The notes under the pieces: model-generated
What the model saw: only the letters and a program-made list of their open reading frames with translations
Database searches by the model: none
What the model was told of the DNA's origin: nothing
Position numbers and translations under genes: made by a program
Virus genome (UHGV): UHGV-0072281
Length of the DNA stretch: 64,000 nucleotides
Origin: a virus
Reading direction: 5' to 3' (one strand)
Shown here: positions 5,456 to 56,578 of the stretch, piece by piece
Position numbering within the stretch: position 1 is the stretch's first letter
Layout: every line of letters begins with the position of its first letter

Positions 5456-5599
5456 ATGATTTCTGTAAAACACAAAAAAGCTATCTTCGCTGTTGTTATC
5501 GCTGTTGTTCTGGGTTGCCTGTACCTGGATATCGACAAAGGCTACGACACTTGCATCGACAACGGTAATTCCGTTGCGCAGTGCACTGGTCGTGGTTAA
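5456..5599 (+). CDS. small lipoprotein-like membrane peptide (47 aa)
   Basis: AGGAG RBS; hydrophobic N-terminus ending VLGC (lipobox-like); three Cys; codon usage of a highly expressed gene; own promoter and terminator. Below the length cutoff of the ORF track. Confidence 0.5.
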   Translation: MISVKHKKAIFAVVIAVVLGCLYLDIDKGYDTCIDNGNSVAQCTGRG

Positions 5600-9533: not shown

Positions 9534-11819
9534 ATGAAAGATACCCGAATCTCTAATTTAGAGAAACTCGTAGAAGCCGGTACTAGTCTGGCCCAAAACG
9601 TCATCGGCAACAACACCGCCAGCGAAATGTGGAAGACGATTGTTGCAGGCGAGTCCGTACGTAGCAACGCAAAAGTATTTGGCGCTCTGCGTGACGAAGC
9701 ATCACAGCACTATGCCAACGCTTTTGGCGGCAAGAAAATGTCTCATGCTGCGACCGTCGCTTCCGCAATGATTCTGGGCGTAGCTAACCACGGTAAAGAC
9801 CTGCAAGAACGTGTTGCCCAGGAATACGCTAAGCCGGAATTCCACACCAAGTATAACCTGGATATTGGTATCCCTGGTGCGCAAGGTGGTGATTGGGGTC
9901 GTGAGCGTATGGTTGTTGCTCAGGAATACTACAGCAACAAAGACTACGACAAAAACTTGGGCCTGACCTGGACCCTGAACGTACGTGCTCTGGAAACTCA
10001 GTCCAAGTTTGCTGAAACACTGTTCCCGACCATTACCGTTGACACCAACGATGTTGGTATTACCGTACGTACTAAAGTGACTACCGTTTCTCGCGGTATC
10101 ATGAACGCGCTGCTGAGCAAAGACGTCGTTGAAGATCATCGTCGTCCGCTGCACAACGCACTGACTGACCACACCGTTCTCCAGGACGAAGCGATCAACA
10201 TCGTTCCTTACGTAATGGAAACCGGTGAAAACCAGGAATACTTCGTAAGCGAAGATCTGGTTCCGAACGAAAAAGTTCGCCTGGGTCGTGTACCTCCGTA
10301 TCCGACTAACTACCTGAGCTTTGCAAACGACACGCTGAACCTGTTCCAGCTGTCTGCGCATCCGGGTATCGTTCAGGAAGGTTACGATGAAACTGATGAA
10401 ATCGCACCGGGTTGTGCTCTGGGCAGCCTGCTGATTTCTGTACGTAAACCGGCCGAAGAAGCGAAAGCGGGTAAATTCATCAAACTGCACGTTCGTGACA
10501 TGCAGTTCGCAACCTTCCAGCGTCCTGCTGAAGGTGACGGCCGTGAACTGGTTCTGCAATTCCGTCGTACCGCGTTCTCTCTGAATGCGAAAACCACTGA
10601 CTGGAAAGGCGACGCTATTCCGGCACTGCAAGCACTGGGCCAGAACTCCTACACCCTGCGCTACGTTATCACCATCACCATGTCCCTGTTCACCAGCGGC
10701 CAGTTCGGTGGTAAAGTAGACATTTCCGGCCACAAACTGGAAATCGAAGGTCTGTACGATGCAACTGGTAACAAAGTTGATACCAAGTCTGGTACCGGCA
10801 AAGTTATCCTGGATGGCCTGAAACTCGAACTGATGGGCTGGCGCTTCGATGGTACTCGTACCAACGAAAACCGTCGTACCCAGGGTCTGCTGCTTGACCC
10901 AATTTGGGAACAGGAAAACTACAAACTGCAATACGGTTCTCCGATTCTGACCAAGTCTCCGGTTGGTGTTGAATACGACGACACTGAACGTCTGGATGAC
11001 CTGATCTCTGCGGTGAACATCCGTAACGAACAGCTGGCTATTACTCAGACGCTGTCTTACACTGAAGCAGTACGTAACGCAGCCGCTGCGATGATCACTC
11101 CGTGGGACAAACCGGCTATCCGTGGTCTGGGCCGTCACTGGGTTGCTCCGTGGTTCAAAGAGTCTGACTACAAAGTCGATGAAGTTGTTCAGTCTCTGGA
11201 TACCAAAGAAGCGCTGATCAACGCTCGTCAGGGTCTGTTGCAGCGTATCGGTAGCCAGGTAACTCAGGCTATCCAGGATTCTCGTTTCATTCCTGCACTG
11301 CGCCTGCTGACCGCTGATCCGGACATTCTTCCGAAAGTTATTATCGCAACTGACGAACCGACTGCATCCATGCTGCTGCTGGTTCAGGGCGACCAACGTC
11401 TGCTGGGCGACCGTTATGAATACGAAGTCGTTACCACCAACGATGACCGCTGGCGTATCTACAACGCAGCTGACGATTCCTGGACTCGTCGTCTGCAATG
11501 GTTCCTGAAAGTTCCGACTGCGGACGATGGTTCCTACTGCGTACTGAACTGGGGTAACCACTTCTGGTCTCCGATCATGGTTACCAACATCAACATTCAG
11601 CGTAACGGTTCTACTTCTAAAGAACTGGCTGTACAGCCGCGTAACGCGCATATCTGCCACTGCCCGATCACTGGTCTGATTTGGGTTAAAGGCATCACCA
11701 AACTGGTTGAAGAAAAACTGGCTTACAACGTTTCTGTAGAACAGAACGGCCAGAAACAAACCGAAGGTGGTGTAGCAGGTAACCTTGCTGTCGAAGGCAA
11801 AGCTACCGCTGGTAAATAA
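9534..11819 (+). CDS. major virion structural protein, candidate major capsid protein (761 aa); tail sheath not excluded
   Basis: Codon usage sharply different from neighbours (CTG, CGT, GGT, ACC, AAA, GAA dominate); strong terminator directly downstream; size is in the range I recall for jumbo-phage capsid proteins (from memory, unverified). Confidence 0.45.
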   Translation: MKDTRISNLEKLVEAGTSLAQNVIGNNTASEMWKTIVAGESVRSNAKVFGALRDEASQHYANAFGGKKMSHAATVASAMILGVANHGKDLQERVAQEYAKPEFHTKYNLDIGIPGAQGGDWGRERMVVAQEYYSNKDYDKNLGLTWTLNVRALETQSKFAETLFPTITVDTNDVGITVRTKVTTVSRGIMNALLSKDVVEDHRRPLHNALTDHTVLQDEAINIVPYVMETGENQEYFVSEDLVPNEKVRLGRVPPYPTNYLSFANDTLNLFQLSAHPGIVQEGYDETDEIAPGCALGSLLISVRKPAEEAKAGKFIKLHVRDMQFATFQRPAEGDGRELVLQFRRTAFSLNAKTTDWKGDAIPALQALGQNSYTLRYVITITMSLFTSGQFGGKVDISGHKLEIEGLYDATGNKVDTKSGTGKVILDGLKLELMGWRFDGTRTNENRRTQGLLLDPIWEQENYKLQYGSPILTKSPVGVEYDDTERLDDLISAVNIRNEQLAITQTLSYTEAVRNAAAAMITPWDKPAIRGLGRHWVAPWFKESDYKVDEVVQSLDTKEALINARQGLLQRIGSQVTQAIQDSRFIPALRLLTADPDILPKVIIATDEPTASMLLLVQGDQRLLGDRYEYEVVTTNDDRWRIYNAADDSWTRRLQWFLKVPTADDGSYCVLNWGNHFWSPIMVTNINIQRNGSTSKELAVQPRNAHICHCPITGLIWVKGITKLVEEKLAYNVSVEQNGQKQTEGGVAGNLAVEGKATAGK

Positions 11820-19922: not shown

Positions 19923-22106
19923 ATGCAGAGATTTAACATATTTCGTGAACAGAACATCGCGTTGGCGAAATCACTGATTATTAAATCAGAATCAATCGCA
20001 CAACAGATGAATCTGGCAATAACCGAGAACGGCGGTTTCGTTTCCGATAACCGAAGTACGTGGCGATACTACCTGCATTTAGCAGGACAACGTCACGAAT
20101 GGGATAAGCCCATTTACATAACGTCGCTCGACACGCAAGAGCAGATAGAATTAACGACAGCCAACCTGTCCCGTCATAAAAAGACCTCAAACGTATTTCG
20201 TTCGAACGGTGAGTACATTGAGGAGCTGATCAGAACGTATCCTGACTACGCGATTTATATCCGAGGTGTGTTTAATCCGGTGGATATAAACTACGCCATC
20301 CGTGTGGCTGATTGTTCTATTCTCTATTACGACAGTTCATTAGTGGAGTCGCAAGAGACGTCACTGATGTCGAGATTGGAAGACAGAATAAGGGCAGCTC
20401 ACGTTCGCTATATGTCAGAAGGGTGGAAAGTTCACAACGATGCGTTCGTGTTAGCATTCTACTGTATTCTGTATCCGCAGCTACCCGGCATTATCGGCTA
20501 TATCCGTTCTTCTTTACAGCATACCACGGAAACACACTCGTTTTACGTGACAGAGTTCTTAGCATCACACCAAGAACTTCACGAGTTTATGCCGTATCTG
20601 ACCCAGAAACAGAAATTCATTCTTTATCGGAACATTCGTTACTGGGAACGTAACTCGGGGAAAGAGGAGATTTTCGACTGGCAGATTGATGCATTGCTGA
20701 CAGGTTGGGGGATGCCTGCGGTTGGGTATAATGTTGCACAACAGATACACGAACCGAAGGATGATGATGACTCCACGTTAACACCGTTACCGATCGGTTA
20801 TCAGCAATCGCTTAACTATACGGAAAAGGATTCTGGTCGAGACCTTGACATTGTAACGACGACAGACATTATCCAGAAGGAAGTCGCGTTAGCGTACAAT
20901 AACCCGGCGTACGAACCGGAGTATCAGGAAGACTTAGATACCCGTTTAAGTTTAACGCAATACCCTAACCTGAAAACCAAACTCATTGAAGTTACAGCAG
21001 TCGACCCAGAAGCGATTGAGCGCTTCGAGTATCTGCATAACCTCTTTAACGAATGGGTACATCTCGTCGCGAAAGGGAAATACAACATTTACCACGAGAT
21101 TCTTAACCCAACAAACGGGGATACCTTAAAGCTTAGCTCAAAAGAGTTATTGGCGCTGTTCTTATACGCGGCGTATAAAGGGTATTCTGACGTTGCGTTA
21201 GAAGAGATTCCTGCGTTCAACGTATTCGGGGTGTTAATCAAACGTTGGGTTTCGTTCGACGAAATGGAACAACATTTAATCCCGAGCTGGGAAAACCGTT
21301 TCGAAGCGTTGATTAACTATTATACCGATACACACACAGAAGTCGTCGGAACGATTCTTAGTGCTGATGAACTCTACGACACGGTTAATGAAATCATTAC
21401 CCAGAAACGTCGTCGTTGGCGTTATAGTCAAAACCGTCGGAAGATTCCTGACCGTGCTGCGGGCTTGATGCTGTTTAACTACCATTACCGTGATTATCGC
21501 TGCGATTTAAAACTGAACTACCGTAACTACGATGAGTTCTTTAAAACGTTCGGGTTAGATTATACATTGGTTTCGGCGGAGACGTGGCAAGACATTGCTA
21601 TTGATGCGTTTAACACCGCGACTAACCTGGAAACCCGTGCAACGATTTCACAGTCTGAGATTCAGCGTGCAATGGTACGATTGATGACGAAGTTGTCATC
21701 CTACACCGTACATTTTGCTGCGCGAATGGGGTCAGATTCTTACGACGTTATGGACCCGCTCTGTCCCATCTTAGGGGATATCCCTATGAGTGGGGAGGGG
21801 ACAATTACAATTATTGAACCCCTCTTAGGCGTACAGCAAGTTACGCGTCACCAGTATATATCCACCGACACTGTGTTACCGGCAGCGCCTGTTATTAAAG
21901 AACTGTCGATGCCGCAGCACATCAAACTCAGGATGAACATTTACATGGGCATCCGAGTGAAAGTAACACAGCAGGTTGTGGTGGATATTAACGAGCCGAC
22001 TACCGGGGTTGTTAAAGTGAAATCTTCGCTTGACGATTGGACGTTAAACGAACAGGTGAAAATTAACGATCTTGACGGCTTCACGCTTGACCAGCTACCT
22101 AAGTGA
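19923..22106 (+). CDS. hypothetical protein (~727 aa)
   Basis: ATG at 19923 (track start 19911 is a TTG); diverges head-to-head from the 905-aa gene with an 11-bp gap. Confidence 0.6.
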   Translation: MQRFNIFREQNIALAKSLIIKSESIAQQMNLAITENGGFVSDNRSTWRYYLHLAGQRHEWDKPIYITSLDTQEQIELTTANLSRHKKTSNVFRSNGEYIEELIRTYPDYAIYIRGVFNPVDINYAIRVADCSILYYDSSLVESQETSLMSRLEDRIRAAHVRYMSEGWKVHNDAFVLAFYCILYPQLPGIIGYIRSSLQHTTETHSFYVTEFLASHQELHEFMPYLTQKQKFILYRNIRYWERNSGKEEIFDWQIDALLTGWGMPAVGYNVAQQIHEPKDDDDSTLTPLPIGYQQSLNYTEKDSGRDLDIVTTTDIIQKEVALAYNNPAYEPEYQEDLDTRLSLTQYPNLKTKLIEVTAVDPEAIERFEYLHNLFNEWVHLVAKGKYNIYHEILNPTNGDTLKLSSKELLALFLYAAYKGYSDVALEEIPAFNVFGVLIKRWVSFDEMEQHLIPSWENRFEALINYYTDTHTEVVGTILSADELYDTVNEIITQKRRRWRYSQNRRKIPDRAAGLMLFNYHYRDYRCDLKLNYRNYDEFFKTFGLDYTLVSAETWQDIAIDAFNTATNLETRATISQSEIQRAMVRLMTKLSSYTVHFAARMGSDSYDVMDPLCPILGDIPMSGEGTITIIEPLLGVQQVTRHQYISTDTVLPAAPVIKELSMPQHIKLRMNIYMGIRVKVTQQVVVDINEPTTGVVKVKSSLDDWTLNEQVKINDLDGFTLDQLPK

Positions 22107-22113
22107 GAAAACC

Positions 22114-22641
22114 ATGGCATATCGCGTCGACTTAACGAAAACTCCGAAACAAATTCTGGTAGATCGTATTAACTACGTTTTCGGGGTATCCTATACCACT
22201 GACAACATCGATTTTAACGATAAAGGTGTGCAACCACTGACGAAAGACGAAGCCCGTCGTTATGGACTGGAATCGAAAGTGGCCGCTGACTTTAAAAACG
22301 GTGTTGCGGGGAACCAGGAATTCATCTTAACCCGTGTTGACCTGGCAGCGTTCTTAGCTGACGAACCGGTTACGGTACCGAAAGGCGAAGTAACCAGCAG
22401 CCAAGAACTGGCAGACTATATCGTTGCTCAGACCGGTATTGATTTGACCAAAGACGACATTATGATCGAGCCTATCAGTGAGGAACTCGATTCTTATGAT
22501 GTTCGCTTAGTCCCGAATCACTTATCTTTTAAAGGAACGATTCCGGTCGTATTTACTGACCCCACACCACGTACGTTGGCGTCTCTCGTGACGAAACTTG
22601 CGCTGGACGGGTTCCGCCCTGGAGAATTAATCAATGTCTAA
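22114..22641 (+). CDS. hypothetical protein (~175 aa)
   Basis: ATG at 22114 in frame with track ORF; coupled to neighbours. Confidence 0.5.
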   Translation: MAYRVDLTKTPKQILVDRINYVFGVSYTTDNIDFNDKGVQPLTKDEARRYGLESKVAADFKNGVAGNQEFILTRVDLAAFLADEPVTVPKGEVTSSQELADYIVAQTGIDLTKDDIMIEPISEELDSYDVRLVPNHLSFKGTIPVVFTDPTPRTLASLVTKLALDGFRPGELINV

Positions 22642-32260: not shown

Positions 32261-32300
32261 TCAGATATATATTACCTTAGTGAGATTACACAGTAATCTC
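32261..32300 (+). promoter_or_regulatory. conserved phage promoter motif plus 8-bp hairpin (gagattac/gtaatctc)
   Basis: Copy 2 of TCAGATATATATTACC; directly after a terminator; precedes the XRE regulator gene. Confidence 0.55.
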
Positions 32301-37631: not shown

Positions 37632-37668
37632 CCCTCTCTCCTAGCGGAGAGAGGGTACTTTTATTTTT
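37632..37668 (+). terminator. rho-independent terminator, near-duplicate of the one at 36846
   Basis: ccctctctcc-tagc-ggagagaggg hairpin followed by a T run. Confidence 0.75.
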
Positions 37669-37682
37669 CTTCGAGGTGTGTG

Positions 37683-38171
37683 ATGACAACGGTATTAGTA
37701 ACAAAGGATTACATTTTAGCTGATCGTTTAGTGGAATATAGTGGAACAGTTAAAGAATTGCCCAAACTACACAAACACAAAAACAAGTTTGTTTTCTACA
37801 CGGGGGAACGTGTACTGGACACCGAGTTTTGGAAAATGTCGATGACCGTTACTATAGAAAAATATTTAGACGAGGATAAACGCAAGAAAGTTGAGCCGTT
37901 GCTTGTGGAACTTTTCGAAAAAGAGCAATTGTTTGATCAAATCGTCATTTTTACGGTCAGAGAAACCTATTGGCTAGGATTAGTATCAGATAAGTTTAAA
38001 ACGTTTGTAATAAATAAAAATGCGGTCTGGACGACGGGATCTGGTGGCGGCTTTGCGCGGGCAGCTTGGGCAACAGGAATATCAGAAAAGAAAATTATGC
38101 CATTGGTAGGATCAATTGATACAGCATCATCACAAACGTACGACTTGTTTTACAGGAAGCATTTACGATGA
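37683..38171 (+). CDS. hypothetical protein (~162 aa)
   Basis: GAGGT RBS before ATG 37683. Confidence 0.5.
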   Translation: MTTVLVTKDYILADRLVEYSGTVKELPKLHKHKNKFVFYTGERVLDTEFWKMSMTVTIEKYLDEDKRKKVEPLLVELFEKEQLFDQIVIFTVRETYWLGLVSDKFKTFVINKNAVWTTGSGGGFARAAWATGISEKKIMPLVGSIDTASSQTYDLFYRKHLR

Positions 38172-38689
38172 AAATAAATGCGGTTTTAATTGGCGATGAA
38201 ATATTCGTTAATACAAAAACACAATATATGTGTTACGAAGGTATTACTGTAATAGACGATTATTACGGTAAATACGGTTGGTGGGTTCCGTCTCCTAATT
38301 CTTTACGATTAGAAGAGGCATTAACTGCCGAAGAGAACAAACTGGATGACGAATGGACTTATATCAGCTCCGTAATTGACGTCAGTGGACGAATTAAAGA
38401 CGTCTTCTGGGCTAAAGATATAGGGTGGCGTGTTACACTACACCAACCAACCCCGGTAAGATTGCTCTACGACCACGCCGATACTTCAGAGTTAGCGTTT
38501 ACCATTGAGACGCTCTCGGTACGTAAAGATTTAGATAACGTAGGTAAAGGGAAGTGGTCTATTGAACGCGTAGAGGAAATTCTTAGTCACTTTAAAGCCA
38601 ACAACAAATTTAAACGTTGGTGCACGTTACCTGAATTAGTAGAGGAGTTGAAAAAGCGGGATTGCAAGCCGCTACCTTTTAATCCGTAA
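38168..38689 (+). CDS. hypothetical protein (173 aa)
   Basis: Start overlaps upstream stop. Confidence 0.5.
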   Translation: MKINAVLIGDEIFVNTKTQYMCYEGITVIDDYYGKYGWWVPSPNSLRLEEALTAEENKLDDEWTYISSVIDVSGRIKDVFWAKDIGWRVTLHQPTPVRLLYDHADTSELAFTIETLSVRKDLDNVGKGKWSIERVEEILSHFKANNKFKRWCTLPELVEELKKRDCKPLPFNP

Positions 38690-38733
38690 CTTTTTACGAA
38701 TGTAGCTATTTTAATGATTAGGAGAATATAGAG

Positions 38734-39129
38734 ATGACAGCAATACTAGGTGTAATGACAAGAAAAGCCGATGCCATTGAAACGTTTATTGAACAATACA
38801 ACAACTCACCGTATACGCGTTTTAGATTGCATAAACCGAAGAATAGTACAGAATGGGTTCGTTGGTTTAGGATTTGGGATAAAACAATAAGTAAAATTGA
38901 TCCGTTATTTAGAATAACGGTTGAACCTGCTTATTGGATAGTAATGGAAATTTCGCTATTGCGTATTATCGAAAAACGTCCTATTGACACAAAGACGATG
39001 TTTGGGAATGATACGTATAAAATGTTGACTAACGGTTTTGTAGGTAATGGAGAACACACTTTGTATCAGGCGATGCTGGAAATGTGTTTGTTCGATTTAG
39101 TTACATACGAATTGGAGATTTCAAAATGA
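38734..39129 (+). CDS. hypothetical protein (131 aa)
   Basis: AGGAGA RBS. Confidence 0.5.
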   Translation: MTAILGVMTRKADAIETFIEQYNNSPYTRFRLHKPKNSTEWVRWFRIWDKTISKIDPLFRITVEPAYWIVMEISLLRIIEKRPIDTKTMFGNDTYKMLTNGFVGNGEHTLYQAMLEMCLFDLVTYELEISK

Positions 39130-39590
39130 ATTGCTTCGAATCTAAAGAAATTGTTGAGTTGTTTAAACAGCGTGAGAAAACCTCTTTCCGTGACTTGTAC
39201 GATTCTGATTATCGTCCACTATTTGCGGTATTGTTGAAACTGGATAAAGAACCCGAAATCGCGTTAGCAGAAGTCCAACACCATCATGTCAGTTTCGTGT
39301 TAACTGAAAACAAGGAACGTTGGGTAGATGACATACTGAACCGTATCGCGCTTTTGGAAACGCCACATCGCTGGGAAGTGGTTATTCAGAAATCGTTGTT
39401 CCCGCGTGAAGACATTTTCAACAACTATCGTCCGAAACAATATTACAACCACGATGGGTCGCCAAAACGTGCTTTCCTGGCACCCCAGCATTTCGTAACC
39501 TACGTAACGTTGCGTTACAAAGACACCGTGGTGCCGTTTGACACCTATTTGGAAATGCGTGAGATAATTTTAGGGAAGAATCCGATATGA
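39126..39590 (+). CDS. hypothetical protein (~154 aa)
   Basis: ATGA overlap with upstream stop; GGAGA upstream. Confidence 0.5.
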   Translation: MNCFESKEIVELFKQREKTSFRDLYDSDYRPLFAVLLKLDKEPEIALAEVQHHHVSFVLTENKERWVDDILNRIALLETPHRWEVVIQKSLFPREDIFNNYRPKQYYNHDGSPKRAFLAPQHFVTYVTLRYKDTVVPFDTYLEMREIILGKNPI

Positions 39591-40069
39591 TTCAATTTTG
39601 TGTTGACGCAGAAAGATTGGCGTCATTTAAAGAGCGTGCTCAGTTTGCAGTTAAAAACGGTTACATTGAGAAAGGTGTTCGTGATACTTGTAAACTAATC
39701 AACGACCATCCGCACCTGGCGACAATGTGGAGCTGTGAAGGCCACGGTATGTATTCTAAGTCGCCTGGAATTCTGCACATTGTTTTTGCAACAGATGCTA
39801 TTGGAAGCCAGCTTCCAATGCAGATTACGTCTGAACTTGCAAAATGCGATCTGCCCAATTTCTGGAATCTTAGTTTGCGTCGCCTTTTTTTACCTGACGA
39901 ATTTTCGGATTTGGTATATCTTGAACCCGATTACGGGTTAAACACAGACGACACTTCCTACTGGGCTTGGAGAGTCGGATACATGCGCTTGATTAATCGT
40001 CCTGCGTTAGTTGAAGCACGACAAGCTCTTTATAAAGCATTTCACACAGTATTAGTTGAGAATAAATAA
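39587..40069 (+). CDS. hypothetical protein (160 aa)
   Basis: ATGA overlap with upstream gene. Confidence 0.5.
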   Translation: MIQFCVDAERLASFKERAQFAVKNGYIEKGVRDTCKLINDHPHLATMWSCEGHGMYSKSPGILHIVFATDAIGSQLPMQITSELAKCDLPNFWNLSLRRLFLPDEFSDLVYLEPDYGLNTDDTSYWAWRVGYMRLINRPALVEARQALYKAFHTVLVENK

Positions 40070-40761
40070 TGGCTACCAAGCAAAAGAAACCTCGTAACAA
40101 AAAGTATAACCCGAAAGCAGCTGCTAACCGTACAGCACACGCCATTGCTGAAAATGCGCTAAACCGCATTACTTTCGTCGGTAGCTCTATTCGCCCCATC
40201 GGCCCGTATGCAGGACGCGGTTTCCAGTTTACAACGTCGCCGCGTATGCGCATGGCAGCCACCGATATGTTAATCGGTGGTTTGTTTGATGAACCGCGTA
40301 ATTGGAAGCTATGGGTTGCGCATTTGTACGAGATGGATAATGGCGTACAAGCAGAAACCATCGTTGCAACACTTGACGATTATACGTTGGGTGATTTCTG
40401 TCAACATGGTGATAAAATCATTAAGTCGCTACGTGAGACAGAAGAAAATTACTTCGGTTATGCTTTTGTTGCTGCACCTAACGAACGTTATGATTTCGAC
40501 CAGGGAGAAGAGCGCTTACTGGAAAACTTCATGCATTCTGGACTGTTAGACAAATCCTTACACTTACCTGAAGAAGAACTGGTGGTTACGCGTAAGGATA
40601 TGGTAACGTTGCTACTAGCCGATCGTGGTCGTTTTGATATTACTGAACCCCATGTACGTAAAGTACAGAAACTCGTGGATAAAGTAGACGAAACTGACCT
40701 GGACACTAACGAAGTCGCAACACGACTTCAGTCTGTGGTAAACCAGATTGAGGATTACTAA
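40069..40761 (+). CDS. hypothetical protein with basic N-terminus (230 aa)
   Basis: N-terminal KQKKPRNKKYNPK; coupled start. Confidence 0.5.
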   Translation: MATKQKKPRNKKYNPKAAANRTAHAIAENALNRITFVGSSIRPIGPYAGRGFQFTTSPRMRMAATDMLIGGLFDEPRNWKLWVAHLYEMDNGVQAETIVATLDDYTLGDFCQHGDKIIKSLRETEENYFGYAFVAAPNERYDFDQGEERLLENFMHSGLLDKSLHLPEEELVVTRKDMVTLLLADRGRFDITEPHVRKVQKLVDKVDETDLDTNEVATRLQSVVNQIEDY

Positions 40762-40763
40762 AC

Positions 40764-41294
40764 GTGATAGCGAGACTTATGAGTTGGTTTAAGCAATGTC
40801 GGGCAAAGGCGGTCGAATGGCCGCCTATTACGCACGATGAAAAGGTGGTTGCTTTTCTGAATTATAACAAAGACTTGAAGAGATTAGGCGAGTTAATGCG
40901 CTTAACGGAATGTCAGGTTTTTGCTAAGATTTCAAGTAGTGCTTTACGTAAACAGGTAATTCCCTACCTATCCTTTTCAGGGCAGGTTTATGCAATAACA
41001 GCAGAAGAATTTTTATCGATGGTGGGCAATGAAACCCCACGTATACGGTACTCGGTTGCGGGTTCATCTGATGCGGTCGGTACAGTTGATTTCGGACGGT
41101 TGTATCAGAGCATTAAAAGTGTGGGGCATATACATGTTAAGCGATTATCAGAAACTTCTGTAGTGATTTATCATCGCACTGAGCACGATTTGTTAGGGTG
41201 TGTTATAAGGCTAACAAATTTACATAGTTTTTACGTTGATTTACTTACAGAGTTTTATCCAGAATCATGGTGCTATATAGATGAAAATAAATGA
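40764..41294 (+). CDS. hypothetical protein (176 aa)
   Basis: Track start is a GTG; ATG 40779 is an alternative. Confidence 0.45.
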   Translation: MIARLMSWFKQCRAKAVEWPPITHDEKVVAFLNYNKDLKRLGELMRLTECQVFAKISSSALRKQVIPYLSFSGQVYAITAEEFLSMVGNETPRIRYSVAGSSDAVGTVDFGRLYQSIKSVGHIHVKRLSETSVVIYHRTEHDLLGCVIRLTNLHSFYVDLLTEFYPESWCYIDENK

Positions 41295-41493
41295 CGGATA
41301 TATCATCTCAGCAATTGTTTCAACTGCGTTGATTGTAGCGATGTTGATGTTCTACGTTAAGACGTTCGACGAATCACGTAGAGAGTCCCTTTATCGTGAA
41401 TGTATGTCAGGTACTACTGTAGATAACCCACGTTACGCTGAATTAGTAATGGCGTGTACGGAATACGCTAAACGAATGGGAGGCGGACGATGA
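41281..41493 (+). CDS. small membrane-anchored protein (70 aa)
   Basis: N-terminal hydrophobic helix IISAIVSTALIVAMLMF; paralogous to the next gene. Confidence 0.5.
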   Translation: MKINDGYIISAIVSTALIVAMLMFYVKTFDESRRESLYRECMSGTTVDNPRYAELVMACTEYAKRMGGGR

Positions 41494-41687
41494 AAATTTG
41501 GTTGCCGATTGTAGTTTTTATCCTTATCGCAGGGGCACTAGCGAACGCCGAGTACGAGAGTCGTGTTTTAGAAACGAAACGCATGTTGTATCTGAATTGT
41601 ATAAAGGATTATACACCAGGCACAGAGCTTCATGCACAGGCTGTAAAAAGCTGTGCATTGATGGCTGAATCACAGACTCGCTCCTAA
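41490..41687 (+). CDS. small signal-peptide or membrane-anchored protein (65 aa)
   Basis: MKIWLPIVVFILIAGALANA; shares ESR...Y..C...A.C pattern with the previous gene. Confidence 0.5.
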   Translation: MKIWLPIVVFILIAGALANAEYESRVLETKRMLYLNCIKDYTPGTELHAQAVKSCALMAESQTRS

Positions 41688-42061
41688 TGCGTATCTGGAC
41701 GCTACAACTTGCTAAGTGGCGGTTAGCTAAGCAGAAAGGATTTCACGCAGTGGATATTACTGTGAAGTCAGGGCGAAAGGAACTCGCCCCCGACTGGGAT
41801 TTCCTAATGGCGTATAAAGTTTCTGCCCAGGACGCTACCGCTGAACGTGAGTACACGATAAAGTATTTGTACAAACTCGAACAACTGTTAGATACTGATG
41901 CCGAAGTTTTAGTGTCGTTACTCAGGCACGATGACTTGGTTTTGATGTGTTATTGTCCCGCAGGTAAGTTTTGTCATCGTTACTTACTGGCGAACAAACT
42001 TCAAGAAGTAGGAATGATATTCGGTATCGACGTTGAGTTATGTGGAGAATTAACCGAATGA
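41687..42061 (+). CDS. hypothetical protein, possibly DUF488-like
   Basis: MCYCPAGKFCHRYLLANKL resembles the DUF488 C-x-C...CHR signature as I recall it. Confidence 0.35.
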   Translation: MRIWTLQLAKWRLAKQKGFHAVDITVKSGRKELAPDWDFLMAYKVSAQDATAEREYTIKYLYKLEQLLDTDAEVLVSLLRHDDLVLMCYCPAGKFCHRYLLANKLQEVGMIFGIDVELCGELTE

Positions 42062-42495
42062 AAGTAAAAGCAGCAGTAGAAGTTATTCCCAAAAAAGAAA
42101 TCGTAGTGTGTTCCGGTTTAGTATTCGAGCTGCCGCGCACTGAATGTTATAATAGCACCAATCCTGAAACGATAATTAGACGCCTTTCAAGACATTGCCT
42201 AAACTACTGTCAAGTTGTTACACCGACAAAGGATGGCGATATAGTCCAAGAACATTTGATTATTAATGAACTCGTGGGCGGTGTCCTTAACGGAATGGAG
42301 CTTGAAGAAGTGAATGGTTCGTTAAAGCTTTATGCCAACTTTCGTCCATGTGGACCACTGGGCAATAAAGTAAATGAATTTATTCAGTCACACGGGTATG
42401 TAAAGCTTAAACCACGTTTACACTATATCGATTCTAAAGTAGCTATGATTTCAGCTATCGATATTGACCTATCAAAACCTTCTGAAAATCACTAA
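42058..42495 (+). CDS. hypothetical protein (~145 aa)
   Basis: ATGA overlap with upstream stop. Confidence 0.5.
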   Translation: MKVKAAVEVIPKKEIVVCSGLVFELPRTECYNSTNPETIIRRLSRHCLNYCQVVTPTKDGDIVQEHLIINELVGGVLNGMELEEVNGSLKLYANFRPCGPLGNKVNEFIQSHGYVKLKPRLHYIDSKVAMISAIDIDLSKPSENH

Positions 42496-42526: not shown

Positions 42527-42572
42527 CCTACCGCCCGATTCTATGGGCGGTAGGTGTTTTATTTTTTTTTTT
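42527..42572 (+). terminator. rho-independent terminator
   Basis: cctaccgccc/gggcggtagg 10-bp stem followed by a T-rich tract. Confidence 0.75.
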
Positions 42573-42588: not shown

Positions 42589-43152
42589 GTGGCCACATCT
42601 TACGTACCTGATTTGAGTCTGACCTCAGCAGAGCTAGTGGTCGCTTTAATCAATCATGATAACGGGTTACAGCTTACGCTAAACGAAATCCGTATTAGCG
42701 GAACCGTAACAAACCCATCACCAACAACTTCGCGTCGTAACACCATCACCGAAATCAGTAAAATCAGAAAACCGGATGGTGCGTCTGTTGTGGTCTACTA
42801 CGACAGACTTGACGCCGATGAGGTATTAACGTCTGAACCTATTTTGATTTCGTTAGACGGTACCGAAGCGAATATCCGTGACGTTCTGAGTGTTGTAAAT
42901 GAACACTGCGGTACGAACTTACAGCCTGAAGACTTACGCGTTTCTGATATTACTTCAGGTAACGATCCTATTGCCGTTAACGTTGCCGACGATTCACCTG
43001 CGTGGATGAATGCGTTTATGGTGACGTTATTTGATAAAACTGAGCGTGCGTTAGCGAACGAAGAAGATGAAATCTTCTGCATCGGTGACGATAGCGTTCT
43101 TACCTTTGAGGTTCCAGATGACGACTCAGCTGAAGAAAACCCGACTACATGA
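42589..43152 (+). CDS. fibre-associated protein, paralogue 1 of a four-member family
   Basis: GTG start with GGAGGG upstream; shares PDLSLTS, VNHD, NLQ-x-DL and C-x-GDDSVLTF with the 48883 gene; precedes fibre 1. Confidence 0.55.
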   Translation: MATSYVPDLSLTSAELVVALINHDNGLQLTLNEIRISGTVTNPSPTTSRRNTITEISKIRKPDGASVVVYYDRLDADEVLTSEPILISLDGTEANIRDVLSVVNEHCGTNLQPEDLRVSDITSGNDPIAVNVADDSPAWMNAFMVTLFDKTERALANEEDEIFCIGDDSVLTFEVPDDDSAEENPTT

Positions 43153-43357: not shown

Positions 43358-46300
43358 ATGGCTAAAGCGGTAAAGAAAATTCGTTTACACGATTTACGTC
43401 CATACACCGGTGATATCGGTGAAGGCGTTTTACTTTTCTCCAAGGATGAGAAAGATTATAAGTTACCAGTCCGTGAGGTTATTGCAGATATTGACACCGT
43501 ACGTAATGCGGTGGCTGATGCACAAACAGCAGCAGCACAATCACAAGAAGCTGCAACTCAGGCTACGCAAGCAAAAGTTTTAGCAGAAGCAGCAAAACAA
43601 CAAACTGACACAGTTGCGGCAACGGTTGCACAACAAGCGCAAACCGTAACCGAAAAAGCAACAGAAGTCAGTACAAAACATACCGAAGTGTTAGCCGCGA
43701 AAACGGCGGTAGACGCTCAGGCTGTGTCCATTAATGAGAAAGCACAAGCGGTAGCGACAAGTGAGGCAAACGTCACACAAGCAGAAACTACCGTTACGAA
43801 GAAAGCAGAAACTGTTGCCACACAAGCCGGGCGGGTCGAACAGTCACTTACGGCAGTTAACGAAGCTGTTGCGTCGGTAGAGTCGTCGAAAGCTGCCGTA
43901 GAAGCTAAAGCAACACAAGTTACTTCAGACAAAGAAACCGCAGAGAATGCGGCAACTCGTTCTGAGGCAGCCGCTAAGCGTGCGGAAGAAATCGTTGCTC
44001 AAGGTACTGTTGATGCAACAACGACCAGTAAAGGTGTCGTTAAACTTAATAATACCTTAACCAGTGACTCTGTTACTGAAGCGGCTACACCGTCAACGGT
44101 TAAGCAGTTAAATGATGAATTGCAGTTAAAAGCAAACCGTCACAACCCAACTTTTACCGGTGTGGTAAAAGCACCGACTCCTGCTTCGGATTCTAACGAC
44201 ACGAGCGTCTCAACGACTGCATGGGTACGGCAAGCGATTGCTGAATTAGTGGACTCTTCACCCGAGACGTTAGATACGTTATCAGAAATTGCAGCCGCGT
44301 TAGGAAACGATCCTAACTTTGCGACAACGATAACGAACCAACTAGCGGGTAAACAGCCGTTAAGTCCGTTACTGACAGCGATTGCCGCAGTCACCACCGC
44401 TGCAAACAAACTCCCTTACTTTACCGGTAGTAATCAGGTAGGGTTAGCGGATTTCACCTCGACTGCTCGCGAATTATTAGCGAAAGGGTCGACGGCCGAT
44501 ATCATCAGCTTCCTGGGGTTGAAAACCACCGTTGATAAAGCTGCGGGCGCTATGCAACGTAGTTCTAACGGTGCCGATATTCCCGATAAAGCCACCTTCG
44601 CGAAGAACATCGGGTTGTCAGCAGAGACGTACCTGAAGTTTAATGGGGAGATGCCAGTAGATGCAGACATCAACACCTTCGGCCCGGTTGAAGCGTTTAT
44701 GGGCGTTTGGTCTAAAGCCACGTCTACGAACGCAACAGTTGCAAAGAATTTTCCAGAAGAAAACGCAGTTGGTTGTTTAGAAGTTTTCAAAGCGGGTAAC
44801 TACAGCGGAAGTCAACGTTTTACTGTACGTAACGGTAACATCTATACACGTCATCTTACTGCTGCATGGAATGGGACAAACGGTCCTTGGTCAGAATGGC
44901 GTAATGTTGCTGGTTCCGCCAGAACGTTGAACGAACAAAATAATCTGAATGACTTGGGTGGTGAGGCCGCACTAGGTGTTTGGAGAAACAGTTCGAGTAC
45001 ATTAGCAACAACCGCGCTGAATTATCCTGAAGAAGGCTCTTTTGCCCAGGGCGTATTAGAAGTTCTCAAAGGTGGCAACTATAGTTACACACAACGCTAC
45101 ACTACCCGCAGAGGCAATGTATACGTTCGTTGTCTACAAGCCACGTGGGACGCTTCAAACCCGCAATGGGAAGAATGGCGCTGTGTTGGTCATCAATCTG
45201 TCAGCACATATTTCGAAGGCGATCTCGACACGTTAACTTCGCCTAACCGTTATAGCATTACTGATAAAGCGACAAACGTTCCTTTAATCGACGGTACTAA
45301 AATTATCGGTATCTTGGACGTCAGTCGTCGTTTTGATAACATTAGTGTCGAACAAAAATTCACCTCGTTTGGTTCTGGGAGCAAAACTACAGGGCGTATT
45401 TTCACACGTGTATTCTCCGGTCAATCAAACGGTAAATGGAGTGAGTGGCGAGAGGTTTTCACCTCGTATTCACTTCCGTTAGTTTTAGGTATCGGTGGGG
45501 TTGCAGCTAAGGTTGACCCGTTAGACTGGCAAACCTACGACTTCGTTCCTGGACAGATGTTAACGACGCCGTTGAACACCATGAAAAACATTCCTGCAGG
45601 AATGGATTGGGGTACTATTGACGGTAACTTAGTTAACATCCTTGTAGGGCCGTCTGACGACACCGGTACTGGTCGGAGTATGCTGGTTTGGCGTAGCACA
45701 GTGTCTGTTGCTAACTATCGCTTCTTTGCGGTACGTATCGCTGGTGAGAAGGGTAGTCGTACGATTACGCCGCGTCAGATGCCTGTGTTGAACGCAGCGC
45801 ACACCTGGTCAGAGAAACAAACGTTCTCTAAAGGTTTAGCGGGTGAATTAACCGGTAATGCTTCTTCAGCAACGAAACTTCAAACAGCCCGTTTAATCGG
45901 CGGCGTAAGTTTCGACGGCACCAAGGACATTGCACTCCCTGGCGTTAACGCACAAGGTACGCAGAACACCACTGGGAATGCGGCTACCGCAACCAAATTA
46001 CAAACGGCTAGAAATATCAACGGTGTGAAATTCGATGGCTCTGGAGACATCAATATCAACACCTTAGTAGGTCGTGGACGTGTCACTGCTCTGGCTGGAT
46101 CAAACAAAGGTACACCTGGTATCCAGATGTACGAGGTTTACAATAACGGTTATCCGACCGCGTATGGTAATTTACTGCATTTAGGTGGTGCTACTGCCGT
46201 AGGTGAAGGTGAACTACTGATCGGTTGGTCTGGTACCAGTGGCGCACACGCACCTGTTTATATCCGTAGTCGTCGAGACACTACAGATGCGCCGTGGTCA

Positions 46301-47674
46301 GAATGGGCGCAAGTTTATACTGCACGAGACAGCATTCCGGGTGTCAACACCACAGGTAATCAGGATACGACCGGAAACGCAGCTACCGCTACAAAACTTA
46401 AAACCACACGTAAAATAGGCGGGGTTAATTTTGACGGAACGGGTGATATTAACCTACCAGGTGTAAACCAGCAGGGCAACCAGAACACAACAGGTAACGC
46501 TGCGACAGCGACTAAACTCCAGACTGCCCGAAATATTGGTGGTGTGGCTTTCGATGGTACTAAAGACATCAGTTTACCTGGGGTAAACCAAACAGGGAAT
46601 CAGTCAACTACGGGGAACGCTGCTACTGCAACGAAGTTGCAGACAGCAAGAAGTATCAACAACGTACCATTCGATGGTTCGAAAGATATTACTCTAACGC
46701 CAAGTAATATCGGTGCGGCTGCCTCCTCAATGACTTGGTTAAATACCGGGGATAATGGTGCAGCGCTTAGTACAGATTCTTTTATTACTTTGTTGCAAAA
46801 TAACGGGGCTTTTAATTCCAGAACTTGGATAGCCCGATGCTCTTGGGCGTATGCTCAAAATGGCGTGATTCCAGATAGTGAAACAAAGTGCGGTACTATT
46901 CCACTTGCAGGCTCAGTTATTGAAGTTGTAAGTTTTGGGATGACCAACTACACCATTCGTATCACAACCCCTACGACGACATCGGTTAGCGGAGCAAAAA
47001 CCAACTCTGAGTTTATTTATTGCTATAATGGTAAAGATTATTCTCCAGGTTGGCGACGGCAGTATAACACTGTTAATAAACCGTCTGCTAGTGACGTTGG
47101 CGCTCTACCAACTGGTGGCGGTACTGTCAGTGGCGATTTGACGGTTAATGGTAAACTGGTTACGAAAAATGCCGATTTTCGAATTGCTTACGGTAGTTAC
47201 GGTTTCATTTTACGTAACGATGGCAATAGCACCTATTTCTTAGTAACAGCATCTGGTCAAGCTGCAACGGGTTCCTGGAATAACTTACGACCGATGTATT
47301 TTAGCAACTCTACCGGTCAAGTAACCTTCGGGCACAACGTTACTGGTAACGGGAACGGTTCGTTTAACGACGTACAGATTCGTTCTGACCGTCGTAACAA
47401 ACGTAATCTGGTGAAACTGGATAATGCATTAGACCGTTTAGAACTCCTTACCGGGTATCTGTACGAAGTTCAACATCCTGACGATGGATGGAATACTTCG
47501 GTAGGCTTAATTGCCCAGGATGCATTAGTTGCGTTACCTGAATTGGTTACTGAAGACGATGACGCTATTTCTGGTGAAAAACGTTTACGTTTGAACTATA
47601 ATGGTGTTATTGCGTTGTTGGTAGAGGGCATTAAAGACCTTCGTCGTGAGCTTAAGGAACTCAAGGGGAAATAA
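43358..47674 (+). CDS. long tail fibre protein (gp37-like distal fibre) with C-terminal intramolecular chaperone (peptidase S74-type) domain
   Basis: 1438 aa; Ala/Gln-rich coiled-coil N-terminal region; five copies of TGNAATATKLQTAR-I-GV-FDG-KDI; three ~70-aa tandem domains; C-terminal SDRRNKRNLVKLD...YNGVIALLVEGIKDL matches the self-cleaving chaperone signature. Confidence 0.85.
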   Translation: MAKAVKKIRLHDLRPYTGDIGEGVLLFSKDEKDYKLPVREVIADIDTVRNAVADAQTAAAQSQEAATQATQAKVLAEAAKQQTDTVAATVAQQAQTVTEKATEVSTKHTEVLAAKTAVDAQAVSINEKAQAVATSEANVTQAETTVTKKAETVATQAGRVEQSLTAVNEAVASVESSKAAVEAKATQVTSDKETAENAATRSEAAAKRAEEIVAQGTVDATTTSKGVVKLNNTLTSDSVTEAATPSTVKQLNDELQLKANRHNPTFTGVVKAPTPASDSNDTSVSTTAWVRQAIAELVDSSPETLDTLSEIAAALGNDPNFATTITNQLAGKQPLSPLLTAIAAVTTAANKLPYFTGSNQVGLADFTSTARELLAKGSTADIISFLGLKTTVDKAAGAMQRSSNGADIPDKATFAKNIGLSAETYLKFNGEMPVDADINTFGPVEAFMGVWSKATSTNATVAKNFPEENAVGCLEVFKAGNYSGSQRFTVRNGNIYTRHLTAAWNGTNGPWSEWRNVAGSARTLNEQNNLNDLGGEAALGVWRNSSSTLATTALNYPEEGSFAQGVLEVLKGGNYSYTQRYTTRRGNVYVRCLQATWDASNPQWEEWRCVGHQSVSTYFEGDLDTLTSPNRYSITDKATNVPLIDGTKIIGILDVSRRFDNISVEQKFTSFGSGSKTTGRIFTRVFSGQSNGKWSEWREVFTSYSLPLVLGIGGVAAKVDPLDWQTYDFVPGQMLTTPLNTMKNIPAGMDWGTIDGNLVNILVGPSDDTGTGRSMLVWRSTVSVANYRFFAVRIAGEKGSRTITPRQMPVLNAAHTWSEKQTFSKGLAGELTGNASSATKLQTARLIGGVSFDGTKDIALPGVNAQGTQNTTGNAATATKLQTARNINGVKFDGSGDININTLVGRGRVTALAGSNKGTPGIQMYEVYNNGYPTAYGNLLHLGGATAVGEGELLIGWSGTSGAHAPVYIRSRRDTTDAPWSEWAQVYTARDSIPGVNTTGNQDTTGNAATATKLKTTRKIGGVNFDGTGDINLPGVNQQGNQNTTGNAATATKLQTARNIGGVAFDGTKDISLPGVNQTGNQSTTGNAATATKLQTARSINNVPFDGSKDITLTPSNIGAAASSMTWLNTGDNGAALSTDSFITLLQNNGAFNSRTWIARCSWAYAQNGVIPDSETKCGTIPLAGSVIEVVSFGMTNYTIRITTPTTTSVSGAKTNSEFIYCYNGKDYSPGWRRQYNTVNKPSASDVGALPTGGGTVSGDLTVNGKLVTKNADFRIAYGSYGFILRNDGNSTYFLVTASGQAATGSWNNLRPMYFSNSTGQVTFGHNVTGNGNGSFNDVQIRSDRRNKRNLVKLDNALDRLELLTGYLYEVQHPDDGWNTSVGLIAQDALVALPELVTEDDDAISGEKRLRLNYNGVIALLVEGIKDLRRELKELKGK

Positions 47675-48882: not shown

Positions 48883-49395
48883 GTGGAACAATTCACGCCA
48901 GATTTGTCGTTAACTTCACTTAACATGGTTATTTCACTGGTTAACCATGACCTCCAACTTGACTTGCAAGAGAATGAGGTCGAAGTCAGTGACGTAAAGA
49001 CCAGTGACGAAATGGAACGTGACACCACTGCTGTTGTAAAGATAAAACGTTCTGGTAACAGAACGTTACAAATCTACTACAACCGTTTAACTGCAGAGCG
49101 GTGGTTAAACCGACAACCTGTACTTGTAAAAGTAACAGGCGAAGGGTTTAATGCGCACGATCTAATCGAATCCATCAACACCGTTTGTGGTGCTAACTTA
49201 CAAACCGACGATTTAACCGACCAGTCGTTCACGGTGGGTAAAGACGCGGTAATATTTAGCATCGCTCCGAGTTCCCTCGGCTACAAAGGTCAGTTCTCCG
49301 TGGTGGTTTTCGGTCCAGATGAAACACCGTGTGGTATCGGTGACGATTCTGTCGTGCTAACGTTTGACAATAAAATCTTAACCTTTGGAGAGTAA
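48883..49395 (+). CDS. fibre-associated protein, paralogue 2
   Basis: GTG start with AGGAGGT upstream; paralogous to 42589; precedes fibre 2. Confidence 0.55.
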   Translation: MEQFTPDLSLTSLNMVISLVNHDLQLDLQENEVEVSDVKTSDEMERDTTAVVKIKRSGNRTLQIYYNRLTAERWLNRQPVLVKVTGEGFNAHDLIESINTVCGANLQTDDLTDQSFTVGKDAVIFSIAPSSLGYKGQFSVVVFGPDETPCGIGDDSVVLTFDNKILTFGE

Positions 49396-52148: not shown

Positions 52149-52192
52149 TCAGATATATATTACCTAGAGGAGAGTGAAATTTACATTCACTC
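52149..52192 (+). promoter_or_regulatory. conserved phage promoter motif plus hairpin (gagtgaa/ttcactc)
   Basis: Copy 3 of TCAGATATATATTACCTAG; directly after a terminator. Confidence 0.55.
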
Positions 52193-56536: not shown

Positions 56537-56578
56537 TCAGATATATATTACCTAGGTGAGAGTTCAGTTACTCTCACT
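56537..56578 (+). promoter_or_regulatory. conserved phage promoter motif plus hairpin (gtgagagt/actctcac)
   Basis: Copy 4 of TCAGATATATATTACCTAGGTGAGAG. Confidence 0.55.

What the first reader, a model, noticed from the sequence alone, without database searches (positions are those of the whole stretch)
41281..41687. Two adjacent paralogous small membrane-anchored Cys-containing proteins
The 70-aa and 65-aa products each have an N-terminal hydrophobic anchor followed by ESR...Y-x-x-C...A-x-C. A duplicated pair of tiny periplasm-facing proteins could be spanin-like, immunity or exclusion factors.
Basis: seen in the sequence. Interest (0 to 1): 0.35.

Follow-up and report, generated by a model that had tools for sequence, protein, structure and literature searches.

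The report
Paired exported disulfide-hairpin phage proteins
Two tiny neighbouring genes of a giant Salmonella/E. coli phage encode diverged copies of one small protein module, a two-helix hairpin with a conserved cysteine pair that is sent to the space outside the inner membrane; it belongs to a large phage family whose job nobody has tested.

Summary
ORFs 41281-41493 (70 aa, P1) and 41490-41687 (65 aa, P2) are real genes under purifying selection (dN/dS 0.11-0.20). They are translationally coupled, and the tandem is kept in diverged relatives.

Pairwise BLAST sees no similarity. Profile methods link both proteins to each other and to a large uncharacterised phage family (PHROG 10627-like, 699 clusters, no Pfam). 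That family consists of exported proteins, mostly lipoproteins, built as a two-helix hairpin with an invariant Cys pair.

P1 has a 20-residue uncleaved signal-anchor. P2 has a typical cleavable signal peptide, so it is probably periplasmic and soluble rather than anchored. Related jumbo phages carry the same kind of pair at the syntenic site:
- SPN3US gp116 and gp118.
- CR5_125 and CR5_126, both lipoproteins with the inner-membrane-retention Asp at +2.

The spanin reading fails: P2 has no lipobox, P1's ectodomain is only 44 aa, and no lysis genes are nearby in any context examined. Function is unknown. My best guess is a periplasmic factor acting at the outer face of the inner membrane, Spackle-like in logic, for superinfection exclusion or envelope protection; lysis control is the main rival. 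No solved structure or characterised protein matches. Interest is modest.

The parts
41281..41493 (+). P1 CDS, 70 aa: N-terminal signal-anchor plus a two-Cys helical hairpin
   Evidence: ORF. 33 homologue clusters. Cys41 and Cys59 invariant. dN/dS 0.11-0.15.
41299..41358 (+). P1 residues 7-26 (YIISAIVSTALIVAMLMFYV): 20-residue hydrophobic segment with no small residues at -3/-1, predicted to be an uncleaved type II signal-anchor
   Evidence: Hydropathy scan. N-in/C-out orientation is inferred from homology to exported domains.
41368..41475 (+). P1 residues 30-65: hairpin domain D-x3-R-x2-LYxxC-x17-C-x3-A. Cys codons at 41401-41403 and 41455-41457.
   Evidence: Aligned to the family core with both Cys in register. 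PHROG 10627 is P1's only PHROG hit (E 0.12).
41478..41483 (+). GGGAGG ribosome-binding site, 6 nt upstream of the P2 ATG and inside the end of P1
   Evidence: Read from the sequence.
41490..41687 (+). P2 CDS, 65 aa: signal peptide plus a two-Cys helical hairpin
   Evidence: ORF. 51 homologue clusters. Cys37 and Cys55 invariant. dN/dS 0.13-0.20.
41490..41549 (+). P2 residues 1-20: signal peptide with n-region MK, a 15-residue h-region, and c-region A-N-A followed by E21. Relatives have A-S-A followed by D or E.
   Evidence: Sequence and alignment A2. Cleavage is inferred from the -3/-1 rule and not tested. One relative (P0084, A-T-V) fits the rule poorly.
41550..41684 (+). P2 mature domain, residues 21-65: helix, loop (DYTPGTE), helix. 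Cys codons at 41598-41600 and 41652-41654.
   Evidence: AlphaFold2 model with mean pLDDT 78, helices 4-38 and 46-63. hhalign to the family gives P = 2.6e-4.
37632..37655 (+). Strong intrinsic-terminator-like hairpin marking the upstream edge of the 11-gene unit (37680-42495) that contains P1 and P2
42527..42554 (+). Strong intrinsic-terminator-like hairpin closing the same unit

Best explanation
P1 and P2 are a tandem pair of diverged paralogues of a large, uncharacterised phage family of Sec-exported mini-proteins. The module is a two-helix hairpin whose helices carry one conserved cysteine each, most likely forming an intramolecular disulfide in the periplasm.

Predicted placement (inferred, not shown):
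- P1 stays in the inner membrane through an uncleaved signal-anchor, with its 44-residue hairpin in the periplasm.
- P2 is exported and probably released by signal peptidase as a soluble periplasmic hairpin of about 45 residues.
- The two genes are co-transcribed and translationally coupled inside an 11-gene non-structural operon.

Proposed function (inference): they act at the periplasmic face of the inner membrane of the infected cell as an envelope-directed accessory factor. The most likely role is to exclude superinfecting phages or protect the envelope by binding a periplasmic target, such as an incoming tail-tip or lysozyme component or a host envelope protein. This is the logic of T4 Spackle/Imm or of the streptococcal lipoprotein Ltp.

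My confidence in the structural and family description is about 0.8. My confidence in the exclusion/protection function is about 0.35-0.4.
For: Real, selected genes kept as a tandem.

Same module in both proteins, and membership of the PHROG-10627-like superfamily:
- Three profile-profile comparisons give P between 2.6e-4 and 5.6e-4, always in the same register with both Cys aligned.
- An independent family profile ranks P1 and P2 first and second among 386 window ORFs.
- P1's only PHROG hit is phrog_10627.

Exported location:
- Of 178 family representatives, at least 148 have a lipobox. The rest have signal peptides or N-terminal TM anchors.
- The profile finds 699 clusters at E <= 1e-3, all of them small single-domain proteins.

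Hairpin fold: AlphaFold2 models of P2 (pLDDT 78) and of the archetype P0121 (pLDDT 91).

Synteny:
- SPN3US gp116 (signal-anchor, same C-x17-C spacing) and gp118 (cleaved signal peptide) lie downstream of the same neighbour gene.
- Cronobacter phage CR5 and Erwinia phage Phobos have, one gene after that same neighbour, an overlapping tandem of two family lipoproteins. Both carry Asp at +2, the E. coli inner-membrane retention rule.

Context fits accessory or early genes rather than lysis genes. Members sit in arrays of small genes, beside nucleotide-metabolism genes, or next to a prophage integrase.

Precedent: T4 Spackle is an early, signal-peptide-exported, 75-residue all-helical protein with one disulfide that blocks the tail lysozyme of superinfecting phage (PMC7677548).
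Against: - No family member has a tested function.
- No significant sequence or fold match to Spackle or to any solved structure.
- No match in PADLOC.
- The highly conserved loop of the main family (LPxGPxxTxYNDWDEVV) is missing from P1 and P2, whose loop is five residues shorter. Their target may therefore differ from the main family's, or the link may be weaker than I think.
- The homology statistics are individually modest: hhalign probabilities are 30-42%, and P2 has no PHROG hit.
- Expression timing is unknown. The conserved promoter-like 15-mer found four times in the window is not upstream of this operon.
- P1's orientation is ambiguous by the positive-inside rule. It rests on homology alone.
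- The disulfide was not measured, because model coordinates could not be read.
Confidence: 0.38

Rival explanations
1. Lysis control. The pair regulates or assists envelope disruption, for example as an antiholin-like periplasmic sensor or binder in the manner of T4 RI (a membrane-tethered then released small periplasmic domain), or as an accessory to a holin or spanin encoded elsewhere.
For: - P1 has type II topology with a small helical periplasmic domain. Pairing it with a released paralogue recalls the logic of RI.
- In Erwinia phages Asesino and Stratton, a 58-aa two-TM protein (holin-like in size) sits immediately upstream of the family member.
- Lysis genes of SPN3US-like phages are poorly defined.
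Against: - No endolysin, holin or spanin family appears beside any member in the contexts examined.
- The spanin criteria fail. There is no lipobox in P2, and P1's ectodomain is about 44 aa with no long coiled coil.
- No sequence hit to any PDB chain.
- Prophage copies next to an integrase fit a moron or exclusion role better than a lysis role.
Confidence: 0.2
2. Host-envelope manipulation unrelated to exclusion or lysis. The hairpins bind and inhibit or redirect a conserved host periplasmic or inner-membrane protein, such as a peptidoglycan hydrolase, a protease, an envelope-stress sensor, or a pilus or secretion component, to condition the cell for giant-phage replication.
For: - The main family's loop is nearly invariant across phages of Pseudomonas, Xanthomonas, Erwinia, Cronobacter and marine hosts. 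This argues for a conserved host target rather than a fast-evolving phage target.
- Members lie among early-type accessory genes.
Against: - P1 and P2 lack that conserved loop.
- No partner is known.
- No defence or anti-defence model matches.
Confidence: 0.25
3. The resemblance between P1 and P2 is convergent or due to chance. They are two unrelated small exported proteins that happen to have two cysteines at the same spacing.
For: - BLASTP finds no alignment.
- hhalign probabilities are only 30-42%.
- Short helical hairpins are easy to mimic.
Against: - The two profiles rank each other near the top, and an independent family profile ranks P1 and P2 first and second among 386 ORFs.
- The alignment register is identical in all comparisons.
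- Tandem or near-tandem pairs of clear family members occupy the syntenic site in CR5, Phobos and SPN3US.
Confidence: 0.1

Closest known systems
PHROG 10627 (unknown function) and SPN3US gp116 (PHROG 28359) / gp118; CR5_125 and CR5_126
   Same: - N-terminal export signal followed by [FY]-x-x-C ... [VI]-x-x-C-x3-A on two helices.
- Same genomic neighbourhood in SPN3US-like jumbo phages.
- Occurs as two diverged copies per genome.
- gp116 shares the signal-anchor and the exact C-x17-C spacing.
   Different: - Most members are lipoproteins with a 22-residue inter-Cys segment, the LPxGPxxTxYNDWDEVV loop and often a second outer Cys pair. P1 and P2 have a 17-residue segment, lack that loop and have no lipobox.
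- Neither P1 nor P2 reaches usual thresholds against the PHROG model (E 0.12 for P1, no hit for P2).
- The family itself has no known function.
T4 Spackle (gp61.3), a periplasmic superinfection-exclusion protein
   Same: A small phage protein exported by a cleavable signal peptide, all-helical, with one intramolecular disulfide, acting in the periplasm of the infected cell (PMC7677548).
   Different: - Spackle is a five-helix bundle of 75 residues.
- No sequence or fold similarity was detected.
- Its target, the gp5 lysozyme, is specific to T-even phages.
T4 RI antiholin
   Same: A small protein with an N-terminal membrane-tethering segment and a short helical periplasmic domain containing cysteines (from my own knowledge of RI).
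   Different: - No sequence match.
- RI works with holin T within a defined lysis-inhibition system, and no holin partner is evident here.
- The family's genomic contexts are not lysis cassettes.
Two-component spanins (Rz/Rz1 type)
   Same: Two small adjacent or overlapping genes encoding envelope proteins, with cysteines that form periplasmic disulfides.
   Different: - An o-spanin must be a lipoprotein, and P2 has no lipobox.
- An i-spanin needs a long coiled-coil ectodomain, and P1 has about 44 residues.
- Only signal-peptide-level PHROG noise links the family's lipoproteins to spanin models (E 0.02-0.2).
Membrane-tethered exclusion lipoproteins (Ltp of phage TP-J34; Cor and Llp of lambdoid phages and T5)
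   Same: Small phage-encoded proteins tethered to a membrane and facing the extracytoplasmic space. They block entry of further phages. The CR5 and Phobos family members are lipoproteins predicted to stay on the inner membrane.
   Different: - Cor and Llp are outer-membrane lipoproteins that mask FhuA. Ltp is a double helix-turn-helix protein from a Gram-positive host.
- There is no homology.
- P1 and P2 are not lipoproteins.

Membership tests
PHROG-10627-like exported two-Cys hairpin superfamily | N-terminal export or tethering signal (lipobox, signal peptide or TM anchor) | tested here: met
   P1 has a 20-residue hydrophobic anchor. P2 has a signal peptide with A-N-A|E. All three targeting modes occur in the family.
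PHROG-10627-like exported two-Cys hairpin superfamily | Core [FY]-x-x-C ... C-x3-A on two helices, with both Cys invariant | tested here: met
   Both Cys align to the family's invariant Cys in hmmsearch and hhalign. The AlphaFold2 model is a hairpin.
PHROG-10627-like exported two-Cys hairpin superfamily | Conserved loop LPxGPxxTxYNDW[DS]EVV with 22 residues between the Cys | tested here: not met
   P1 and P2 have 17 residues between the Cys and lack the motif. SPN3US gp116 shares this short-loop form.
PHROG-10627-like exported two-Cys hairpin superfamily | Statistically significant profile match | tested here: inconclusive
   - E 0.0026 and 0.0093 against 386 window ORFs.
- hhalign P between 2.6e-4 and 5.6e-4, but probability only 30-42%.
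- Against the PHROG model, E 0.12 for P1 and no hit for P2.
Two-component spanin (i-spanin + o-spanin) | o-spanin is an outer-membrane lipoprotein with a lipobox Cys | tested here: not met
   P2 has no Cys before residue 37, and P1 none before residue 41.
Two-component spanin (i-spanin + o-spanin) | i-spanin is a type II membrane protein with a long coiled-coil periplasmic domain | tested here: not met
   P1's ectodomain is about 44 residues and aligns to a hairpin.
Two-component spanin (i-spanin + o-spanin) | Located in or near a lysis cassette | tested here: not met
   The neighbours are DUF488-N3a, a prohead-protease paralogue and PHROGs of unknown function. Family members elsewhere are never beside endolysin families.
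T4 Spackle | Sequence or fold similarity to the Spackle helical bundle | tested here: not met
T4 Spackle | Inhibits a tail-associated lysozyme and is expressed early | not testable with these tools
   Needs biochemistry and time-resolved expression data.
T4 RI antiholin | Sequence similarity to RI and a cognate holin partner | tested here: not met
   No PDB sequence hit to RI chains. No holin was identified next to the pair.
Cor / Llp outer-membrane exclusion lipoproteins | Lipobox and outer-membrane sorting | tested here: not met
   P1 and P2 have no lipobox. The enterobacterial lipoprotein relatives (CR5, Phobos) have Asp at +2, which predicts inner-membrane retention.

The most novel reading that the evidence does not exclude
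The pair could represent a previously unrecognised class of phage periplasmic effectors: an inner-membrane-anchored hairpin plus a soluble hairpin working together, perhaps as a heterodimer. Its role would be to block a step specific to giant-phage entry, such as tail-tip lysozyme action or the membrane remodelling that accompanies genome delivery, or to time lysis in nucleus-forming phages. The 699-cluster lipoprotein family would be the broader version, aimed at a conserved Gram-negative envelope target.
Probability: 0.2. Interest if true: 0.6.

Novelty: new variant of a known kind. Interest (0 to 1): 0.35.

Why it matters
Small exported phage proteins are how infected cells are sealed against rival phages and how lysis is timed, yet few have been characterised. 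This analysis ties two orphan mini-genes to a family of at least 699 sequence clusters that has an almost invariant loop, no Pfam entry, no solved structure and no tested member. That gives a concrete and cheap experimental handle: SPN3US gp116 and gp118 sit in a genetically tractable phage. The handle could reveal an envelope-level function of jumbo phages and of many other Gram-negative phages. On present evidence the finding is an ordinary pair of accessory genes of unknown function, not a new system.

Tried and rejected
- Megablast of the region against 50,697 phage records: no match.
- tblastn of P1 and P2 against the same records: only noise.
- Pfam, PHROGs, NCBIfam and PADLOC for P1 and P2: nothing significant. 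For family members, NCBIfam and Pfam gave only signal-peptide or lipobox-level hits to Cor, TrbK, EexN, LysC and spanin models. I do not count these as homology.
- PDB sequence search with the family profile: no hit below E 0.29.
- BFVD: returned only uncharacterised members of the same family.
- Literature: the SPN3US papers mention gp118 only for its length and never mention gp116. The motif string NDWDEVV occurs in no paper.
- Expression timing: I looked for a promoter motif. The conserved 15-mer is absent from this operon, and sigma-70-like sites are at chance level.

Full report
**What the window is.** The neighbour ORF 40069-40761 is 61-64% identical to a protein of Salmonella phage SPN3US and its relatives. 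It has weaker matches in Erwinia, Cronobacter, Klebsiella and other jumbo phages. Megablast of the region finds nothing in 50,697 phage records. The window is therefore an uncultured relative of the SPN3US-like giant phages. Close homologues of the two target proteins come from contigs of about 222-230 kb, several deposited under Salmonella, E. coli or Shigella assemblies.

**The observation.**
- ORFs 41281-41493 (P1, 70 aa) and 41490-41687 (P2, 65 aa) are present as described.
- P1's stop overlaps P2's start (ATGA). P2's stop overlaps the start of the next gene, a DUF488-N3a protein. A GGGAGG site lies 6 nt before the P2 start.
- Strong terminator-like hairpins at 37632-37655 and 42527-42554 bracket an 11-gene unit that contains the pair.
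- Both genes are real. There are 33 and 51 homologue clusters, and the cysteines are invariant.
- Two diverged relatives, L013 and L014, keep the same 70 + 65 aa overlapping tandem followed by DUF488.
- Nei-Gojobori dN/dS is 0.11-0.15 for P1 and 0.13-0.20 for P2.

- hhalign of the two family alignments aligns exactly the Cys-pair region (31 columns, P = 4.3e-4, probability 34%).
- Against all 386 six-frame ORFs of at least 35 aa in the window, the P1 profile's best non-self hit is P2. The P2 profile ranks P1 second.
- The shared core is L-Y-x-x-C-x11-A-x-x-V-x-x-C, with the cysteines 18 positions apart in both proteins.

**A larger family.**
- In SPN3US, the syntenic stretch after the same neighbour gene holds two similar proteins. 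gp116 (69 aa) has an N-terminal anchor, F-R-M-C and the identical C-x17-C spacing. gp118 (110 aa) has a signal peptide ending AHA|A and F-L-E-C-x21-C.
- A profile of these proteins plus Erwinia and Pseudomonas phage relatives recovered further proteins. These are secreted proteins or lipoproteins of 80-110 aa with F-x-x-C-[ML]-x-x-LPAGP-x-x-T-x-YNDWDEVV-x-x-C-x3-A, often with a second, outer Cys pair.
- They belong to PHROG 10627 (unknown function). gp116 is PHROG 28359 (unknown function). There is no Pfam or NCBIfam family.
- A full HMMER scan of 1.84 billion representatives found 699 clusters at E <= 1e-3 and 322 at E <= 1e-10. All are small and single-domain.
- Of 178 representatives, at least 148 have a lipobox. 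The others have a signal peptide or an N-terminal TM anchor. The Cys-Cys distance is 23 in 142 of them, against 18 in P1, P2 and gp116.

**Do P1 and P2 belong to it?**
- I built a profile from 32 family members, deliberately without P1, P2 or gp116, and searched it against the 386 window ORFs. P1 (E 0.0026) and P2 (E 0.0093) are the top two hits, and the next is at 0.51. Both cysteines align to the family's, with a five-residue shorter loop.
- hhalign against a 150-sequence family alignment gives P = 5.6e-4 for P1 and 2.6e-4 for P2, in the same register.
- Of 38,880 PHROGs, the only one P1 touches is 10627 (E 0.12). P2 touches none.
- Each test is modest, but they agree with each other and with synteny. 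I rate superfamily membership at about 0.8 and class the pair as a short-loop variant that lacks the family's signature loop.

**Pairs are a recurring theme.** Cronobacter phage CR5 and Erwinia phage Phobos (Derbicusvirus) carry two overlapping family genes one gene downstream of the same neighbour. In CR5 these are CR5_125 and CR5_126, and both match PHROG 10627 at about 1e-31. All four proteins are lipoproteins with Asp directly after the lipid-modified Cys. By the established +2 rule for E. coli lipoprotein sorting, Asp at that position predicts retention on the inner membrane. This matches P1 and gp116, which use a transmembrane anchor instead. The module therefore appears to work at the periplasmic face of the inner membrane, or free in the periplasm. 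It does not appear to work on the outer membrane.

**Structure.**
- AlphaFold2 models P2 as a helix (continuing from the signal peptide), a loop at 39-45 and a second helix at 46-63 (pLDDT 78).
- The archetype P0121 is modelled at pLDDT 91 as two helices (30-43 and 57-70) clamped by a short beta-bridge.
- Among predicted viral structures, only uncharacterised members of the same family match.
- I could not read coordinates, so the disulfide is inferred from conservation, helix positions and the exported location.

**Function.** Nothing in the databases or the literature assigns one. The SPN3US papers describe gp117, which lies between gp116 and gp118, as a diverged paralogue of the prohead protease. 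They mention gp118 only for its length (PMC5694885). gp116 and gp118 do not appear in the main text of the paper on SPN3US essential genes and head structure.

Genomic contexts of eight or nine family members are of three kinds:
- arrays of small genes in large lytic phages;
- a block next to nucleotide-metabolism genes;
- in one prophage, the small-gene block beside the integrase.

None is next to an endolysin, holin or spanin family. Within the window, P1 and P2 are the only clear exported proteins in their neighbourhood.

**Spanin reading rejected.** P2 has no lipobox, P1's ectodomain is about 44 residues, and there is no lysis context.

**Preferred mechanism.** The closest analogue in logic is T4 Spackle: an early, signal-peptide-exported, 75-residue helical protein with one disulfide that inhibits the tail lysozyme of superinfecting phage (PMC7677548). 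There is no sequence or fold similarity, so this is analogy and not membership. I commit to a periplasmic exclusion or envelope-protection role at about 0.38. The rivals are host-envelope manipulation (about 0.25), lysis control (about 0.2), and chance resemblance between unrelated proteins (about 0.1).

**Novelty and interest.** The pair is a divergent, short-loop, non-lipoprotein variant of a catalogued but functionally unknown phage family. The family is of moderate interest because of its size, its nearly invariant loop, and the absence of any Pfam entry, solved structure or tested member. The specific finding is an ordinary pair of accessory genes. Interest 0.35.

Noticed in passing
window 5384-5398, 32261-32275, 52149-52163, 56537-56551 (all + strand): The exact 15-mer TCAGATATATATTAC occurs four times (0.08 expected by chance). 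It sits within a longer conserved block of about 27 nt (TTTCAGATATATATTACCTAGGTGAGAG). Each copy is intergenic, 3 of 4 lie just after a terminator-like hairpin, and all are 40-70 nt before a + strand gene. It is probably a phage-specific promoter, possibly for the virion RNA polymerase (early genes) as in phiKZ-like phages. That last point is from memory and was not tested.
   Followed up: partly
window 5456-5599 (+): A 47-aa stand-alone gene (PHROG 8574, E 3e-23, unknown function) with an AGGAG ribosome-binding site, the promoter-like motif upstream and a terminator downstream. The product is MISVKHKKAIFAVVIAVVLGC|LYLDIDKGYDTCIDNGNSVAQCTGRG. It has a lipobox-like VVLGC, and the rest of the protein carries a further Cys pair, so it is a possible tiny lipoprotein or membrane peptide.
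   Followed up: partly
window 42040-42495 (+): A 151-aa homologue of SPN3US gp117, which the literature describes as a diverged paralogue of the S80 prohead protease (PHROG 7478, E 4e-6; PMC5694885). Here it lies after the DUF488 gene rather than between the two hairpin genes as in SPN3US.
   Followed up: partly
window 41687-42061 (+): A DUF488-N3a protein (Pfam PF22751, E 1e-11) whose start overlaps the stop of P2. This arrangement is conserved in relatives L013 and L014.
   Followed up: no
(homologue sources): Near-identical copies of P1 and P2 lie on contigs of about 220-230 kb deposited under Salmonella enterica, E. coli and Shigella genome assemblies. This jumbo phage lineage is therefore repeatedly co-sequenced with enterobacterial isolates, through a carrier state, pseudolysogeny or contamination.
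   Followed up: no
L002 7748-7924 (Asesino gp133); L003 8221-8397 (Stratton gp137); L004 7348-7542 and 10998-11216: Small two-TM proteins of 58-72 aa lie next to, or within about 3 kb of, the family member in Erwinia jumbo phages. They are holin-like in size and topology but have no annotated function (PHROG 32826, unknown). No equivalent lies next to P1 and P2.
   Followed up: partly
window 22072-22641, 42589-43152, 48883-49395 (+): Three paralogous 'virion structural protein' genes (PHROG 2935 / DUF7941) are scattered through the window. Two of them directly precede tail-fibre genes.
   Followed up: no
window 43358-47674 (+): A 1438-aa tail-fibre-like protein with several near-identical internal repeats of the type NxTGNAATATKLQTAR-x-I-x-GV-x-FDG[ST].
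   Followed up: no
window 9702-11759 (-): A 685-aa open frame runs antisense within the 761-aa + strand ORF 9534-11819. It is probably a non-coding shadow frame, but it is unusually long.
   Followed up: no
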